Positions 43,500 to 51,307 of a stretch of 59,696 bases of DNA are shown here, in pieces. The translations under genes and the position numbers were made by a program. The DNA is from Nitrososphaerota archaeon. Its GTDB lineage: Archaea; Thermoproteota; Nitrososphaeria; Nitrososphaerales; Nitrosopumilaceae. Positions within the stretch are counted from its first letter, which is position 1, and each line of letters starts with the position of its first letter. The DNA is taken from contig JAQBHN010000037.1 in the NCBI GenBank assembly GCA_032127635.1, positions 1 through 59,696 on the forward strand, written 5' to 3'. The notes beneath the pieces were generated by a model. That model was not told the DNA's origin. It worked only from the letters and a program-made list of their open reading frames with translations, and made no database searches.

Positions 43500-44132
43500 A
43501 TGGTCAATAAAGGATTTCCAAAATTCGGCATGTCGCAGGCGGGTGCATTTGTTGCAGCACTTAAAAATTATAATTTGCCAGATTTCATTTTAGTTTTAGT
43601 TGCAAAAGAATGCAAGTCAGATCTGCTCGAAAGGGGAAGAATAGACGACAGATTACAAAGTATGAATGATGATGCTTTAGAACTATTACACAGGGTTTTT
43701 GTTGGATGTAAAGAAGATTCTGCAGGAAAATATGCCCAATACAGATTCTATGCATATGTATCAAGCATGTATCACAAATGCGAGGTCATAGTTAACGATA
43801 CAATTCCGGGTGCATCAGGTACAAATCACAAAGTTCCTGTCGCGGTAAAAAACAACGGAATGTACATAGCAATTGCATATAACAAAGCAACTGGAAATCC
43901 AGTGAACGCAAAAGAAACGACAAGATTTTACAACATGGTGGATGATATCAAAAAAGGAGATCATGGAACCATGCTAGCTGATGGAATTTACGGCTCTTCC
44001 GTAGGCTTTAGAGGAGATGCCCTTGTAGAACTTGAGACATTAAGCAAATCACGGACAAATGATCCTGAAAATAAATTGGATTTCAAAACTGCAAATTTTG
44101 AAAATAACATTTACTCAGTTTCAAAACTTTAG
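43500..44132 (+). CDS. Hypothetical protein with a degenerate Mrr-like C-terminal domain
   Basis: IPGASGTNHKVPV...AYNK...PV...F...DDI...GIYGSSVGF pattern. Confidence 0.75.
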   Translation: MVNKGFPKFGMSQAGAFVAALKNYNLPDFILVLVAKECKSDLLERGRIDDRLQSMNDDALELLHRVFVGCKEDSAGKYAQYRFYAYVSSMYHKCEVIVNDTIPGASGTNHKVPVAVKNNGMYIAIAYNKATGNPVNAKETTRFYNMVDDIKKGDHGTMLADGIYGSSVGFRGDALVELETLSKSRTNDPENKLDFKTANFENNIYSVSKL

Positions 44133-44143
44133 ATGCGAATATT

Positions 44144-44713
44144 TTATCGTAAATTAAATTGCGAAGTATCCATTGCTAGAAACATTGGCTTGCCATCAGT
44201 TTTTTGAAAATCTTCATCATACTGTTCAAATTCTAACTGTTCAAAAAGATGCTTGGTCCACACATCATGTACATCTTGAATGAATTTTTTGTGTCCAGCG
44301 ATTCTCAACATTTCATGGACTAGTTCGTGTGAAACAGTGGTGCAATTTTTTTCTGCAAGAAATAAAGTGTCATTAGGCTCTTTTGGAGACTGCCAATGCG
44401 TCATTCCAAAATTTTCGGCATGATATCCATCACAGGTGCAATCAGTCCACCAAGGTTTGAAATGAGTTAGGTAAAAATGATAAATGTCTTTCCCACGCTG
44501 GTAATGATCACGTATCAATGTAGAAGTATCAAGGCGTTGAAGAATACTTCTAGGAGTTGTGATCATTTCGTCACATTGAATTTCATAATATTTGCCAAAC
44601 TTTTGTTTCAACCAAACCTGATAAAATTTGCTCATTTTTTTGACATATTCAAATTCAAATTGTCGTTTTTCACGATCTGCTTCAGGTACTACAAAAATAA
44701 AATGTAGAATCAT
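44144..44713 (-). CDS. Putative zinc metallopeptidase-like protein
   Basis: VSHELVHEML (HExxH). Confidence 0.65.
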   Translation of the reverse strand: MILHFIFVVPEADREKRQFEFEYVKKMSKFYQVWLKQKFGKYYEIQCDEMITTPRSILQRLDTSTLIRDHYQRGKDIYHFYLTHFKPWWTDCTCDGYHAENFGMTHWQSPKEPNDTLFLAEKNCTTVSHELVHEMLRIAGHKKFIQDVHDVWTKHLFEQLEFEQYDEDFQKTDGKPMFLAMDTSQFNLR

Positions 44714-44731: not shown

Positions 44732-44971
44732 TTATGTTTGACCTTCAATACCCATCAAGGTAAGAGTTGAGCGAATCTTTTCAATTTTCCTGATTTTCCA
44801 GGTAATTGTTTCTCTTAGTTTTTCAACAGTGTCAGATTCGATCTTGGCCAAAATATCATATGCACCAAAAGTTCCATGAACTTCTTTTACACCATCCAAG
44901 CCCTTTAGTTGCCCTATAATAGCTTCCTCAGAACCCAGTTCACAGTTTATTAAAACATAAGCTGTTGCCAT
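44732..44971 (-). CDS. Lrp/AsnC ligand-binding (RAM) domain protein
   Basis: AYVLIN...GAYDILAKI...IRSTLTL. Confidence 0.9.
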   Translation of the reverse strand: MATAYVLINCELGSEEAIIGQLKGLDGVKEVHGTFGAYDILAKIESDTVEKLRETITWKIRKIEKIRSTLTLMGIEGQT

Positions 44972-45014: not shown

Positions 45015-45434
45015 TTAGTTTTGAGACATCTTCACAATACCATCCCAGATTGGCTTTGGCACAGGCATTACAGATAACCTTGAAATTCTTATTAATTCCC
45101 AGTCTTTAAATTTTTTCTCTTTTTTCATTTCATCAAGGGTCACTGGGCGTTTCAATGTTTTTTTATATTTTACATCAACGACAATGAATCGGTCTACATC
45201 TTCCTTAGGATTGGAATAGGGTTTTGAAGTTATTTGCATGATTCCTACCGCTTGTCGTTCATCACCTGTATGATAAAAAAATGCAAGATCGCCTGATTTC
45301 ATTTCTCGCATATGCTTTAATGCCAAATTATTATGAACCCCGTCCCATACGGTTGTTTTCTCTTTTTTGAGCTGTTCAAAATTATATCCCCTTGGCCCGC
45401 TAGGTTCCTGTTTTGCTAACCAATAATTCACCAT
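45015..45434 (-). CDS. EVE domain protein
   Basis: YWLAKQEP, WDGVHN, GDLAFFYH, RLSVMPV. Confidence 0.92.
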   Translation of the reverse strand: MVNYWLAKQEPSGPRGYNFEQLKKEKTTVWDGVHNNLALKHMREMKSGDLAFFYHTGDERQAVGIMQITSKPYSNPKEDVDRFIVVDVKYKKTLKRPVTLDEMKKEKKFKDWELIRISRLSVMPVPKPIWDGIVKMSQN

Positions 45435-45481
45435 TTCATTTTTCCATATTTTCATCGGTGTTTAATGGTTTTTGAAAAAAG

Positions 45482-45652
45482 ATATGTTCCCCGGTTCTGA
45501 CTCGCACCAAATCATTGGTCATAGCCATACGCCTCCTCGCGTTCTGAAACCGGGGTTGCCCACAATGTAGCACGCCTGGGTGAATTAGAAATCACTGGTA
45601 TCATTACGATCGACTCATCCTAATCCGTCTGCATGCTTGCTCTTGGGCGATT
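45482..45652 (-). ncRNA. Candidate two-hairpin H/ACA-like small RNA
   Basis: GC-rich intergenic island; stem AGCAUGC/GCGUGCU followed by ACA; stem CCCCGGUU/AACCGGGG followed by A-ACA and then U6; TTTTTAG ~25 nt upstream. Confidence 0.6.
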
Positions 45653-45725
45653 TGTAATAGAATTACTCCTACTAAAAACCATTGAAGGAATAATTGTAAA
45701 AAAACAGTTTTTGGATGAATTGGTT

Positions 45726-47366
45726 TTAATTTTTAAGAACCGAATCAGACAAAGACATCTCAAATCCCACTACAGGAACACGAATCTTATAATTTTCAAT
45801 AATTTTTGAATCGATTTTTCCAATAATTCCGATGGGGATGTCATTTAGAACGATTGATGCGCAATGGCCATCTTCAAATGTAGGATTAGTTGCAGTTTTT
45901 GTCTCCACTTTGATCCCAAATCCAATATTCAGTGCAGATTGAATAATTGATTTTATTTCAGTGAAATTTGCATCTTTATGCGCACTGATACCAGAAAAAT
46001 TAATTTTTTCCGATATTGGGTTTTCTGTAGCAAAAACAGTCCCAGTTTCAAACATTTTTTGAGGGTACGATTCATGAATATTTTTTGAAAGGTTTTCCAA
46101 TAAACCTGGAAGGATAGAATCGCGTAAAATAGTATGCTCTCTGCTTTTCGAATCAAGTACAGAAATGATCCTTGTTGAATCTCTGTTAGTCATATCATAT
46201 AATACTCGTTTGCTAGTCAAACTAGAATTCAATGCCTCAAGAAATCCCAGTCCAATCATTGTTTGATCTAGAGATTTTAGTTTTATTGAAACAGGATTTG
46301 TTTTTCCCATAGTTTGAGAAGGAGACAGTGCAGGTTCAAGATTCTGGATTCCGTATCCCAAAGCAACTTCTTCAACTAAATCTAAAGGTCCAAAAATATC
46401 AAATCGATATGCAGGTATTGTACAAATGATGTTTGTCCCTTTGGATATTGCATCCAAGCGAGATTTTTTCAAAGATGAGACGATTTTTGAAGAATTAAGA
46501 TTTAAACCCAAAGTCTGATTGATCAATGAAGCACTGACAGTCATTTTTCTTTGTTCTAATTTTGGTGAAGAATTTTTTGCGCCTGTTATTTTTACCGATT
46601 CTAAGATAAAACCAGCGCTTTGCAAAATGGTCGCTACAACTGCAAGCATATCTTCAGCATCTTCTTTGGCGATTCCAGTCACCTCAACAAAAAGATTTTT
46701 GGTTTTTGTGGTAACTGTGGTGACTGCGGCGTTAATTATAGGAGGAAAAGACACGGTATTTTGATTTTTATCTAAAATTATAGGCACTTGAGAAGATTGG
46801 CCAAGTATAGAACCGTAATCTTTTCCAACATCAGTGTTTACCAAGATTTCTGAGACGGTTGTCTCTTTTTCAGAGTTTAACGGGATGAATTTGTGATCTC
46901 TAGTTGTTGTAGTGTAAACTAGTGGAAACGAAATTTTGTCTAAATCATGTATTCCAATTGATGATTTTTTTCTTTTTCTTCCTATTCCAAAATGAAGATC
47001 TTCCTGCATGGTCATCAATTGCTTGATTGTTTTATCATCAACTTTTCCATTTTTTGCGATAATTCCAGTTACAAAAGGCCTAATCTTTGTCACTGAAGAA
47101 TTTACAGAGATTTGATAGTTGTTAGATCTTTTTACATTGAGTTTTACTATGCCAGTTTTAATCCCAAATAGTCCTTGCATGCCAAGTGCAATCCCATAAT
47201 CAGTAGAGTAGTCAGGGCGGTTTGGGCTATATTCAATCCTCACAAGATCCTTATCTTCGGATTCAATATCCAATCCAAGAAAAGGCAATGAATCAGAAAT
47301 TTGTTTTTTTGTCACTTTTCCAATTAATTTTTGGAGGCGTGAGTAAGATAATTCAATTACTGGCAT
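45726..47366 (-). CDS. pheT: Phenylalanine--tRNA ligase beta subunit
   Basis: PNRPD, QEDLH, GIHD, PPIIN, YRFDI...EEVA; ATG at 47366. Confidence 0.94.
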   Translation of the reverse strand: MPVIELSYSRLQKLIGKVTKKQISDSLPFLGLDIESEDKDLVRIEYSPNRPDYSTDYGIALGMQGLFGIKTGIVKLNVKRSNNYQISVNSSVTKIRPFVTGIIAKNGKVDDKTIKQLMTMQEDLHFGIGRKRKKSSIGIHDLDKISFPLVYTTTTRDHKFIPLNSEKETTVSEILVNTDVGKDYGSILGQSSQVPIILDKNQNTVSFPPIINAAVTTVTTKTKNLFVEVTGIAKEDAEDMLAVVATILQSAGFILESVKITGAKNSSPKLEQRKMTVSASLINQTLGLNLNSSKIVSSLKKSRLDAISKGTNIICTIPAYRFDIFGPLDLVEEVALGYGIQNLEPALSPSQTMGKTNPVSIKLKSLDQTMIGLGFLEALNSSLTSKRVLYDMTNRDSTRIISVLDSKSREHTILRDSILPGLLENLSKNIHESYPQKMFETGTVFATENPISEKINFSGISAHKDANFTEIKSIIQSALNIGFGIKVETKTATNPTFEDGHCASIVLNDIPIGIIGKIDSKIIENYKIRVPVVGFEMSLSDSVLKN

Positions 47367-48745
47367 TTTGTAGCACTCCTTAACCAACCAAGATTATTAT
47401 TGTAAAACTCTCTCACGTCACCTACACCATACTTTAACATAGCAATTCTTTCAATACCGCCACCCCAAGCTAGAACAGGTTGAGTAATACCAAGGGGTTT
47501 GGTTACTTCAGGTCTAAAAATACCCATTCCAAATAACTCAATCCATTTTCCTAATTTTTCATTGTAAACCATGGTTTGAAGAGATGGTTCGGTGTAAGGG
47601 AAAAATGTTGGCCAGAACTTTACTTTGGTAATTCCGATTCGTTTGTAAAACTCTCGTTGAATTCCCATTAAATTTCTCAATGAAGCGTCTTTTCCAACAA
47701 CGATGCCTTCAATTTGATTAAATTCAACCAAATGTTTGTAACTAACTTTTTCGTTTCTAAATACACGACCTAGAGAGAATATTCGTGCCTCATCAGGTTT
47801 GTTTTCAGCTAAATGTTTGATTGTTACACAAGTGGTATGTGTCCTAAGAACCATTTTTCTTGCTTCATTAATGTCCCACTGATATCGCCAATTCTTTTTA
47901 TGAGATTCGGAAACTTTTCTTATTTGCTCAGGTGTTCCAATTTTTTTGGCATTTATTCCATCCAGATAAAATGTATCTTGTAATTCTCTTGCAGGGTGGT
48001 CTTGCGGAGTAAACAGAGCATCAAAATTCCAAAAGCTTGACTGAGTCATGTTGCCAAGAATTTCCGAAAAACCAAGCGTGACAAATATCTCACGAATTTC
48101 ATCAATAGTGTCTTTTAGAGGATGTGTTCTTGCAACAAAAATTTCTGGAACGTTAGCTTCAACATCAATGCCACCAACAGAATCTGAAATTTTGATTGAT
48201 TTTGCCAAATCTGATAATGAAATTTCTTTTGTTTTAACAACATCCTCAATAATAAAATCAGGTCTTTTCAAAAGTCCAGATAAATCATCGCCGTCAATTT
48301 TATCTTTAGACAACTTCTCATTTCCAATAAGTTTGAGGGTTTTTTCTCCTAGAAGTTCTGAGGGCGGATTTTTTATAGAAATTTCGTCAAGTAAAACTTC
48401 AATCCAATTATTTTTTCTAGCCAGACCCATGGAAGGTCCAAATACAAAGCCCAATTCTTTTTGCAGATCAGGTAATTTTCTAGGCCCAGCATTTAGCAAA
48501 TCTAACAATCTTCTTTCAGGCAATCCTTTTGCAAAAGATTCAAGACCATTTTTCCCTAAACTCAGAATGCTCGATTTTGATTCAGTTACAATTGCCAGAT
48601 TTTTTAATTTAAGCCATTCAATTCCTCGTCTAATTTGATCAGGTGAAAGTTGCGTGGATTTTTCTAATGACTCAGGAGATTGTTTTGGATTGTCTCTTAA
48701 AGAGGCGATAATTTTTTTTTCAATTTCATGAAAAACTTGCGACAA
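47357..48745 (-). CDS. pheS: Phenylalanine--tRNA ligase alpha subunit
   Basis: FWNFDAL, HPARELQDTF, LRTHTT, FPYTEPS, GIERIAM. Confidence 0.95.
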   Translation of the reverse strand: MSQVFHEIEKKIIASLRDNPKQSPESLEKSTQLSPDQIRRGIEWLKLKNLAIVTESKSSILSLGKNGLESFAKGLPERRLLDLLNAGPRKLPDLQKELGFVFGPSMGLARKNNWIEVLLDEISIKNPPSELLGEKTLKLIGNEKLSKDKIDGDDLSGLLKRPDFIIEDVVKTKEISLSDLAKSIKISDSVGGIDVEANVPEIFVARTHPLKDTIDEIREIFVTLGFSEILGNMTQSSFWNFDALFTPQDHPARELQDTFYLDGINAKKIGTPEQIRKVSESHKKNWRYQWDINEARKMVLRTHTTCVTIKHLAENKPDEARIFSLGRVFRNEKVSYKHLVEFNQIEGIVVGKDASLRNLMGIQREFYKRIGITKVKFWPTFFPYTEPSLQTMVYNEKLGKWIELFGMGIFRPEVTKPLGITQPVLAWGGGIERIAMLKYGVGDVREFYNNNLGWLRSATKCQ

Positions 48746-50335: not shown

Positions 50336-51232
50336 TTATCTAGGGAAGTGTTTACTCTTTTTTGAACTGGATCTGTCTTCAGATCGTTTTGATGTAACAG
50401 GTTCTCGAATTTCATTACAATTTAAGCAAAATACCTTTAATTCTTCTCTTGCAAGATCTGGTGATGAGATATATTTTCCCCAAGATGCAGCATCGCCACC
50501 ACGTCCAGAATTATCAGAAGTGACATTCTCAGATATCGGACTAATTCCTAAGGCTCTTTCATCATTAAAACCGCAATTAGAACAAGTTTTTCCACCCAGG
50601 ATTTCATATAATTTTTCTTTAATAGTTTCATAAAATTTATCTGAACCATTAGAATAGAAGCTCTCTTGTTTTCTCAAAAATTTATCATTTCGCGGTTTTC
50701 TAGATCTAGAATTATCTCTACTAGATTCAGGTCTAGAAGATGATCTTGAACCTCTGTCATCTCGTGAACCTCGTGAACCTCTGTCATCTCTGGAATATCT
50801 ATCATTTCCAGAATCGCCTGGTTTGTTTTTTCTGAAACAATCACTGCAGTAAACGGGTTTGTTAAATCTTGGAACAAATGGAACTGTGCATTCATTGCCA
50901 CAATCAGAACAGGTTACAGTCGTAGATTCATTTCTACTGTCATCTCGTGAACCTCTGTCATCTCTGGAATATCTATCATTTCCAGAATCGTCTGGTTTGT
51001 TTTTTCTGAAACAATCACTGCAGTAAACGGGTTTGTTAGATCTTGGAACAAATGGAACTGTGCATTCATTGCCACAATCAGAACAGGTTACAGTCGTAGA
51101 TTCATTTCTACTGTCATCTCGTGAACCTCTGTCATCTCCAGAATTTCTAAAAGAGCGAGAGGTGCTATTTTCTCGTCTTGAATTTCTTCCATCTGTTTTT
51201 CCATCAGAATATTTTGATTTATAGAGATCCAT
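50336..51232 (-). CDS. Protein with two CxxC-x17-CxxC domains, RS/RD-rich linkers and a C-terminal HNH-like Zn domain
   Basis: CSDCGNECTVPFVPR.NKPVYCSDC twice; LGGKTCSNCG...FCLNCN. Confidence 0.85.
   Translation of the reverse strand: MDLYKSKYSDGKTDGRNSRRENSTSRSFRNSGDDRGSRDDSRNESTTVTCSDCGNECTVPFVPRSNKPVYCSDCFRKNKPDDSGNDRYSRDDRGSRDDSRNESTTVTCSDCGNECTVPFVPRFNKPVYCSDCFRKNKPGDSGNDRYSRDDRGSRGSRDDRGSRSSSRPESSRDNSRSRKPRNDKFLRKQESFYSNGSDKFYETIKEKLYEILGGKTCSNCGFNDERALGISPISENVTSDNSGRGGDAASWGKYISSPDLAREELKVFCLNCNEIREPVTSKRSEDRSSSKKSKHFPR
50771..51138. repeat. 174-bp tandem duplication (~2.1 copies)
   Basis: TCGTGAACCTCTGTCATCT at 50771, 50945 and 51119; two substitutions seen between units. Confidence 0.92.
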
Positions 51233-51307
51233 ATTATACAAAAAAAATAGATCGATAGGTTATAGATACTTAGAGCTTGAATTTATGCCTAGAATTAAAA
51301 AAATCGT

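What the first reader, a model, noticed from the sequence alone, without database searches (positions are those of the whole stretch)
45482..45652. Unannotated ~170-nt structured RNA with H/ACA guide architecture between EVE and pheT
Seen on the minus strand: a GC-rich, ORF-free island in AT-rich DNA, a TATA-like TTTTTAG ~25 nt upstream and a U6 run downstream. Hairpin 1 has a lower stem AGCAUGC/GCGUGCU immediately followed by ACA, an internal pocket AGACGG / UCACCCAG, an upper stem AUUAGGA/UUCUAAU capped by UGA...UGA (K-turn-like), and 15 nt from upper stem to ACA. An outer GCCCA/UGGGC helix encloses it. Hairpin 2 is CCCCGGUU/AACCGGGG followed by A-ACA near the 3' end. Established: archaeal H/ACA guides have a pocket, a K-turn and an ACA box 14-16 nt from the pocket. 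Inference: the pocket halves (ACCCAG, GACGG) are complementary to CUGGGU and CCGUC, which I recall flanking the 23S peptidyl-transferase loop (CUGGGUUUAGACCGUC), but the spacing is not canonical, so the target is tentative.
Basis: partly seen in the sequence, partly recalled or inferred. Interest (0 to 1): 0.7.

Follow-up and report, generated by a model that had tools for sequence, protein, structure and literature searches.

The report
Two-hairpin archaeal pseudouridine guide RNA
This is a conserved 170-nucleotide RNA gene of ammonia-oxidising archaea that likely guides chemical modification of two working centres of the ribosome, a known kind of RNA, with one extra loop that may grip its target a third time.

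Summary
Window 45650-45482 (minus strand), behind pheT, encodes a two-hairpin box H/ACA RNA. Each hairpin has a lower stem, pocket, upper stem, K-turn and ACA box. It has no Rfam match and is mostly single-copy in 84 of 85 family genomes. Its stems covary while pockets and ACA boxes stay fixed. Cbf5, Nop10, Gar1 and L7Ae are encoded. Short RNA contigs lie within it in 5 of 7 metatranscriptomes (weak). Hairpin 1 fits the 23S peptidyl-transferase loop atypically; distant homologues point to U2586 (E. coli numbering, recalled). Its cap loop holds a conserved GGCUA complementary to 23S just 3' of the target, the best site in both rRNAs by a slim margin: a possible third antisense element, untested. 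No pseudouridine was measured. The scan found this RNA before on other DNA (e1-2484566, e1-3973487). Verdict: new member of a known class, with one variant feature worth testing.

The parts
45673..45678 (-). TATA-like box (TTTTTA); predicts a start near 45650
   Evidence: sequence; at this place 24 of 68 homologues have TTTTTAG and 35 of 68 have TAATATT; function inferred
45482..45650 (-). two-hairpin box H/ACA RNA (ends predicted)
   Evidence: covariance model hit 45482-45652; RNA contigs confined to 45490-45640 in 5 of 7 runs
45644..45648 (-). 5' arm of outer helix (pairs with 45562-45558)
   Evidence: fold; similar arms in many homologues but variable in register, not counted for covariation
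45638..45642 (-). conserved leader motif GAGCA, function unexplained
   Evidence: present with the hairpin 1 cap stem-loop in 52 of 68 homologues, both absent in 13, leader only by strict pattern in 3
45569..45637 (-). hairpin 1: lower stem, pocket, 10-nt GA stem with K-turn, cap stem-loop
45625..45630 (-). hairpin 1 5' pocket strand; GACGG is complementary to 23S 2590-2594 (E. coli numbering, recalled)
45576..45583 (-). hairpin 1 3' pocket strand; ACCCAG is complementary to 23S 2579-2584
45566..45568 (-). ACA box of hairpin 1
   Evidence: invariant in 48 of 48 aligned
45558..45562 (-). 3' arm of outer helix in the linker
45489..45555 (-). hairpin 2: lower stem, pocket, upper stem with K-turn, cap loop
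45543..45547 (-). hairpin 2 5' pocket strand (weak, 2-3 predicted pairs with helix 69)
45522..45527 (-). cap-loop motif UGGCUA, complementary to 23S 1931-1936 just 3' of the helix 69 target; candidate third antisense element
45497..45503 (-). hairpin 2 3' pocket strand GAGUCAG, complementary to 23S 1916-1922
45485..45487 (-). ACA box of hairpin 2
   Evidence: invariant in 48 of 48 aligned
45475..45480 (-). U6 run, likely archaeal terminator
   Evidence: sequence; T-rich in many but not all homologues; function inferred
45726..47387 (-). pheT (phenylalanyl-tRNA synthetase beta), conserved upstream neighbour
   Evidence: Pfam; beside the RNA in 94 of 100 loci
45015..45455 (-). EVE-domain gene, incidental downstream neighbour
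   Evidence: Pfam; 57 of 100 loci

Best explanation
The element is a two-hairpin box H/ACA RNA that likely assembles with Cbf5, Nop10, Gar1 and L7Ae and is predicted to guide pseudouridine formation in 23S rRNA at the peptidyl-transferase loop (hairpin 1) and in helix 69 (hairpin 2). Shown: the anatomy, its covariation, the four proteins and complementarity to invariant rRNA. Inferred: independent transcription from the TATA-like box, L7Ae on both K-turns and Cbf5 on both ACA boxes. Hairpin 1 would hold 23S 2579-2584 and 2590-2594 and most likely convert U2586, 14 nt from ACA, with a C-U mismatch at 2585 and four unpaired target bases (about 0.6; U2585 about 0.15). Hairpin 2 would hold 1915-1922 with 8 pairs and most likely convert U1923, 16 nt from ACA. 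Because helix 69 is repetitive, the same strand may also serve U1917, and a shorter register U1921. The cap-loop GGCUA may pair with 1931-1935 and make up for the weak 5' pocket strand (about 0.35). All numbering is E. coli and recalled.
For: Covariation: 22 of 36 pairs change on both sides; 89% of cells pair against 31-48% in slid controls. RNAalifold recovers both lower stems and the hairpin 1 upper stem unaided. ACA boxes and pocket cores are invariant in 48 of 48. All four proteins score over their cut-offs. Hairpin 1: best relaxed site in 16S plus 23S, 0 of 30 nulls. Guide position 14 is A, pairing U2585, in 6 of 16 loci examined, U in 5 and C in 5. One locus outside the class (L152) extends the 5' strand to pair 2589 and 2588, giving a canonical fit on U2586. 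Hairpin 2: free positions 16, 15 and 9 keep pairing in 83, 87 and 86 of 91 distinct hairpins, including 16 A-to-G wobble changes. One Acidilobaceae homologue has G at guide position 9 where its own 23S has C1915, a true compensatory change. Precedents from passages read: H. volcanii sR-h45 modifies the PTC site with its first stem-loop and two helix 69 sites with its second, tolerating four unpaired bases (PMC7075261). S. islandicus sR148 guides the 1917 and yeast-2266 equivalents with one 3' guide (PMC11077068).
Against: No pseudouridine map, binding assay or strand-specific read was available. The own assembly lacks 23S, so targets come from relatives. Hairpin 1 has no canonical-spacing target better than chance (9 of 30 nulls). 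In this family five target bases and two guide bases stay unpaired, and the top of the pocket can close on itself (G-C and G-U/C in 48 of 48). Hairpin 2's simple score is not significant (3 of 30 and 6 of 30 nulls). Both rRNA target cores were identical in the 13 23S genes shown, so within-class guide-target covariation cannot be seen. No family genome but one short contig had the alternative helix 69 sequence (1 of 201). Two deep homologues have U at position 14 of hairpin 2, which fits no register well (L316, L317). Hairpin 1 is missing in Nitrososphaeraceae-type loci and in L118. Muller 2008 reports that several predicted archaeal targets proved unmodified (PMC2377435, passages).
Confidence: 0.8

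Rival explanations
1. It is an H/ACA RNP RNA, but hairpin 1 no longer modifies its site in this family. It binds the peptidyl-transferase loop as a folding chaperone or is a relic, and only hairpin 2 makes pseudouridine.
For: By the 10-nt GA stem and 15-nt rule the base set at the active site would be A2587, not a U. Position 14 is C in the family. A comparable sR-h45 mutant that lost the two U-A pairs 5' of its target lost activity in vivo, though with only 3 pairs left per side (PMC7075261 section 13). Hairpin 1 is absent in Nitrososphaeraceae.
Against: ACA, K-turn, spacing and both pocket cores are invariant or nearly so, which a relic would not keep; 11 pairs remain; distant homologues fit U2586 well.
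Confidence: 0.13
2. It is an H/ACA guide whose real targets lie elsewhere (tRNA, other small RNAs or mRNA), and the 23S matches are chance.
For: Pocket strands are short and score modestly against nulls. S. islandicus sR435 serves eight sites in several RNA classes.
Against: No full canonical hairpin 1 target at 15-nt spacing in the assembly (0 hits), and no tRNA site among 35 scored as high as the 23S sites. Substitutions in hairpin 2 are mostly pairing-compatible with helix 69, with one compensatory change.
Confidence: 0.04
3. It is a cis-acting element (3' UTR of pheT or leader of the downstream gene), not an independent guide RNA.
For: Tight linkage to pheT (94 of 100 loci). Two of 7 RNA runs have contigs running from the element into the EVE gene.
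Against: A promoter-like box lies between pheT and the element in 59 of 68 homologues. The downstream gene varies. The full H/ACA anatomy is doubled. Short contigs are confined to the element in 5 of 7 runs. A few homologues lie away from pheT.
Confidence: 0.03

Closest known systems
[quoted passage not shown]
   Same: Two H/ACA motifs with K-turns; first motif aimed at the third U of the PTC UUUA run (Psi2605), second at helix 69; atypical four-base unpaired targets are tolerated.
   Different: The second hairpin here pairs on the 3' side of helix 69 (U1923, U1921, perhaps U1917) rather than making 1940/1942. Hairpin 1 lacks the two A's that pair the U's before the target. The linker is about 10 nt with an outer helix, against 56 nt. 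Sequence homology was not tested.
Sulfolobus islandicus sR148 (atypical H/ACA RNA; PMC11077068, passages and Table 1 read; supplement could not be opened)
   Same: One 3' guide strand serving 23S U2060 (E. coli 1917) and U2066 (yeast 2266), the same helix 69 positions predicted for hairpin 2.
   Different: sR148 lacks the lower stem and ACA; hairpin 2 is a classic motif within a two-hairpin RNA. Sequence not compared.
Pyrococcus H/ACA sRNAs (Pab40 motif 3 and relatives; PMC2377435 and PMC4652768, passages read)
   Same: Lower stem, pocket, about 10-nt GA stem, K-turn or K-loop, ACA at 14-16 nt; one motif aims at helix 69 (L2016).
   Different: No Rfam model matched at gathering score or with E up to 10 apart from weak chance-level hits; different lineage and site set.
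Extra base-pairing elements of box C/D snoRNAs (van Nues 2011, PMC3116282, abstract and outline seen)
   Same: A conserved sequence outside the guide, complementary to rRNA next to the modification site.
   Different: Shown for C/D RNAs and methylation; here proposed, untested, for the cap loop of an archaeal H/ACA hairpin.

Membership tests
archaeal box H/ACA guide RNA | lower and upper stems flanking an internal loop | tested here: met
   both hairpins; covariation (hairpin 2 lower stem mostly invariant, its upper stem 76% paired)
archaeal box H/ACA guide RNA | ACA (ANA) box directly 3' of each lower stem | tested here: met
   ACA twice, invariant in 48 of 48
archaeal box H/ACA guide RNA | K-turn or K-loop with tandem G-A pairs 9-10 nt above the pocket | tested here: met
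   3' UGA invariant and 5' GA at least 90% conserved in both hairpins; 10 nt on the 3' side; K-loop form in one lineage
archaeal box H/ACA guide RNA | bipartite complementarity around a target U, 14-16 nt from ACA (hairpin 2) | tested here: met
   U1923 at 16 nt with 8+2 pairs, U1921 at 14 nt with 6+3 pairs; pairing-compatible substitutions; simple score not significant alone
archaeal box H/ACA guide RNA | bipartite complementarity with only UN unpaired, 14-16 nt from ACA (hairpin 1) | tested here: inconclusive
   6+5 pairs but five unpaired target bases in this family; canonical fit on U2586 only in distant homologues
archaeal box H/ACA guide RNA | host encodes Cbf5, Nop10, Gar1, L7Ae | tested here: met
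archaeal box H/ACA guide RNA | expressed as a discrete small RNA | tested here: inconclusive
   contigs confined to the element in 5 of 7 RNA runs; contigs give no strand or true ends
archaeal box H/ACA guide RNA | binds Cbf5/L7Ae and produces pseudouridine at the target | not testable with these tools
   needs biochemistry or pseudouridine mapping
an existing Rfam family | score above a gathering threshold | tested here: not met
   only tRNAs in the window; best hits at the locus E 1.3-8.4
orthologue of H. volcanii sR-h45 | sequence homology or shared ancestry | not tested
   no haloarchaeal sequence was obtained; only target order and anatomy compared from the paper

The most novel reading that the evidence does not exclude
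Hairpin 2 is a three-point guide: besides its pocket, the loop beyond the K-turn pairs with 23S 1931-1936, prying open the helix 69-71 junction and replacing a weak 5' pocket strand. This would be the H/ACA counterpart of the extra base-pairing known for C/D snoRNAs, conserved across ammonia-oxidising archaea, on an RNA that modifies both helix 69 and the peptidyl-transferase loop.
Probability: 0.33. Interest if true: 0.65.

Novelty: new member of a known kind. Interest (0 to 1): 0.42.

Why it matters
It gives a first concrete pseudouridylation guide, with named target bases, for a globally abundant archaeal group for which my searches found no such RNA described. It adds an unannotated RNA family absent from Rfam that reaches across Nitrososphaeria and into other Thermoproteota. 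It also shows modular evolution: two-hairpin and single-hairpin forms, and K-turn and K-loop forms. If the cap-loop pairing is real, H/ACA target recognition is not confined to the pocket, which would change how targets of orphan or weakly pairing guides are predicted. Without that, it is a solid but expected member of a known class.

Tried and rejected
Rfam: no match. Own 23S: not assembled. Canonical hairpin 1 target elsewhere: 0 hits for the 15-nt pattern in the own genome, 2 and 2 wobble-rich hits for the 14- and 13-nt patterns, 8 for a shorter closed-pocket pattern, none followed up; tRNAs scored lower than 23S. Guide-target covariation inside the family for the A-to-G pocket variant: not found (1 of 201, a short contig with a different loop), so the variant is read as a G-U wobble. 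Leader GAGCA as an antisense element to the A-loop: ranks only third of the peaks listed; hairpin 1 cap ranks eighth; both rejected as unsupported. GGCU as a plain tetraloop: disfavoured, because in Nitrososphaeraceae the motif sits unpaired beside an inserted hairpin; a protein contact is not excluded, since Cbf5 touches the apical loop of Pf9 in sub-complexes (PMC2094053, passages). A separate hairpin 1 in four Nitrososphaeraceae-type genomes and G004: 1 of 5 matched, at the level of the reversed control. The sigma-70 scan found nothing and does not cover archaeal promoters. Three of 8 weak phylum hits (L156-L158) do not show the anatomy and were dropped. Uncovered pheT and EVE stretches in RNA runs are not used as evidence of low expression. 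Papers not held: Walker 2010 genome paper, Blaby 2011, Shi 2009; an earlier mention of this RNA in them cannot be excluded.

Full report
Observation. The stretch lies on the minus strand between pheT (45726-47387) and an EVE-domain gene (45015-45455). GC is 50% against 37% in the window, and the fold has z = -2.96. Rfam has no family for it: only tRNAs score in the window, and hits at the locus have E of 1.3 or worse.

Conservation. BLAST found it in 166 of 201 genomes of the family, 25 of 27 genera, mostly in one copy. A covariance model built from 48 of the 67 distinct homologues then parsed found it in 84 of 85 family genomes of a class sample and in 5 of 5 genomes that BLAST had missed. 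In other families of the class it was found in 3/3, 3/4, 1/8, 2/14, 0/1, 5/9, 2/7, 0/15, 0/2, 0/1 and 1/1 genomes. A phylum sample gave 8 weak hits outside the family among 151 genomes; five show the hairpin 1 anatomy and three do not. pheT lies beside the RNA in 94 of 100 loci examined, EVE in 57.

Structure. On the 48-sequence alignment, 22 of 36 pairs change on both sides and 89% of cells pair; 0 of 500 shuffles reach this, and slid controls pair at 31-48%. The structure was named by me from these sequences, but RNAalifold recovered both lower stems and the first upper stem on its own (23 pairs, 12 compensatory). Both ACA boxes, GACGG, CACCCAG, GUCAG and the 3' UGA of both K-turns are invariant in 48 of 48. 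[quoted passage not shown] One lineage replaces the hairpin 1 K-turn cap by a K-loop. Nitrososphaeraceae-type loci and one small genome keep hairpin 2 only. Cbf5, Nop10, Gar1 and L7Ae are all encoded in the own assembly.

Expression. Seven metatranscriptome runs from seven studies were laid, of 11 RNA holders listed. In five (X2, X5, X6, X12, X14) the contigs over the element stay within 45490-45640; X5 and X6 have no loose ends there, X2 has a 9-letter loose end, and X12 and X14 have adapter or other loose ends. In two (X1, X13) a contig runs on into EVE. A run of unrecorded type crosses the 5' boundary into pheT. Contigs give no strand or true ends, so this is a weak hint of a discrete RNA.

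Target of hairpin 1. The own assembly lacks 23S, so rRNAs of relatives were used. E. coli numbering below is recalled; it agrees with the spacing in the S. islandicus table and with the H. volcanii U2603-U2604-Psi2605-A2606 run. With a gap of up to 6 nt, the best site in 16S plus 23S is the PTC loop: 6 pairs to 2579-2584 and 5 to 2590-2594, with 0 of 30 nulls as good. Under strict spacing nothing beats chance (9 of 30). Distant homologues suggest which U is meant. Guide position 14 is A, pairing U2585, in 6 of 16 loci examined, U in 5 and C in 5 (the 5' strand printed there for L153 is a mis-parse). In L152 the 5' strand also pairs 2589 and 2588, a canonical fit on U2586. U2586 matches the site that the first stem-loop of H. 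volcanii sR-h45 modifies. In this family the fit is atypical: a C-U mismatch and four unpaired bases. sR-h45 tolerates four unpaired bases when ACA is present, but also modifies the most 5' unpaired U, which would favour U2585 at only 13 nt. So U2586 is likely, U2585 possible, and a non-modifying role is not excluded.

Target of hairpin 2. The 3' pocket strand pairs with helix 69: U1923 with 8+2 pairs at 16 nt, U1921 with 6+3 pairs at 14 nt. These are the two best canonical sites, but the score alone is not significant (3 of 30 nulls). Among 91 distinct hairpins from 125 loci, the positions not fixed by my pattern keep pairing in 83 (position 16), 87 (position 15, 16 of them by A-to-G wobble) and 86 (position 9); position 8 pairs in only 29. 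The Acidilobaceae homologue has G at position 9 and its own 23S has C1915, one true compensatory change. In Nitrososphaeraceae and two Nitrosocaldus-like loci the 5' strand pairs 1919-1925, which makes U1917 a canonical target with the same 3' strand. S. islandicus sR148 is shown to guide the 1917 and yeast-2266 equivalents with one 3' guide. Against: some deep homologues pair only from position 14 (U1921 register), and two have U there. The rRNA target cores were identical in all 13 23S genes printed, which limits covariation tests.

The cap-loop motif. Beyond the K-turn of hairpin 2 sits GGCUA. In the pattern scan, which did not include the cap, 71 of 76 thaumarchaeal loci have GGCUA, one GGCUG, two GGCU and two none; the three bacterial hits have none; the Acidilobaceae locus has GGCUG but within a stem. 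Many of these genomes overlap with those searched earlier, so they are not independent. In Nitrososphaeraceae the cap has gained a hairpin, yet the motif stays unpaired beside it. Its complement UAGCCA occurs once in 16S plus 23S, 8 nt 3' of U1923. Averaged over 31 caps (38 picked, 7 not parsed), that site ranks first, 14.87 against 14.42 for the next. I saw the match by eye first, the margin is slim and kin are not independent, so this is suggestive only. Among 12 further class loci, 4 of 4 from one deep family and one Nitrososphaeraceae-type locus have the motif in the loop, while seven from three other families and four loci outside the class do not (the model used contains the motif). The rRNA is invariant there, so covariation could not be tested. 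A protein contact is a live rival. Two other conserved motifs, the leader GAGCA and the hairpin 1 cap stem-loop, occur together (52 both, 13 neither, 3 leader only by strict pattern, of 68) but did not pass the same ranking test and remain unexplained.

Literature. Ten full-text searches listed no paper describing an H/ACA RNA of Nitrosopumilus or its relatives, nor cap-loop pairing by an H/ACA guide. The search cannot take the slash in H/ACA, which weakens this. PMC4652768, PMC7075261, PMC11077068 and PMC7991803 hold no 'Thaum' string, and PMC2377435 holds no 'maritimus' or 'Cenarchaeum'. I read passages of these and of PMC6138745, PMC2094053, PMC4084955, PMC5069720 and PMC4836417, part 1 and section 13 of PMC7075261, and the abstract of PMC3116282. 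Walker 2010, Blaby 2011 and Shi 2009 were not held, and the S. islandicus supplement could not be read; they may bear on priority and on site equivalences. The scan's own earlier notes report the same RNA in two other genomes with the same general reading and named PMC7075261.

Verdict. A real, conserved, unannotated two-hairpin H/ACA guide, most likely for 23S U2586 and helix 69 uridines; a new member of a known kind. The candidate third antisense element is the one feature that could make it a new variant.

Noticed in passing
window 45642-45638 and 45614-45598 (minus): The leader GAGCA and the small cap stem-loop of hairpin 1 are kept or lost together (52 both, 13 neither of 68), suggesting an unknown joint function.
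   Followed up: partly
L122, L130, L131, L169-L238 (Nitrososphaeraceae-titled loci), L118: Only hairpin 2 is kept; hairpin 1 is lost or degenerate, and in several the cap has gained an extra hairpin. Predicts loss of the PTC pseudouridine in these lineages.
   Followed up: partly
L126, L127, L129: The two hairpins are separated by a long AT-rich linker (about 60-90 nt) containing a shared short motif.
   Followed up: no
L124 and L133 (G254): This genome has a two-hairpin copy behind pheT and a second, single hairpin-2-like RNA elsewhere.
   Followed up: no
L151, L154: Outside the class the second hairpin carries a longer 5' pocket strand complementary to the 3' side of helix 69 and a changed 3' strand, suggesting shifted target choice.
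   Followed up: partly
L083 (G151:C82:279-299): A short contig carries a helix 69 sequence unlike the rest of the family, possibly a foreign rRNA fragment in that assembly.
   Followed up: no
G000 C71 and C87: Two nearly identical tRNA-Ser(UGA) genes on different contigs, and no assembled 23S gene.
   Followed up: no
window 44732-44971 (minus): A small Lrp/AsnC ligand-binding-domain gene follows EVE and is covered by contigs in three of the RNA runs laid; it neighbours the RNA in 59 of 100 loci.
   Followed up: no
window 43500-44132 (plus) and 44144-44713 (minus): Two ORFs of 210 and 189 aa with no Pfam match.
   Followed up: no
window 50336-51241 (minus): A 301-aa ORF with two repeated cysteine-pair (zinc-ribbon-like) segments and RG/RD-rich spacers.
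   Followed up: no
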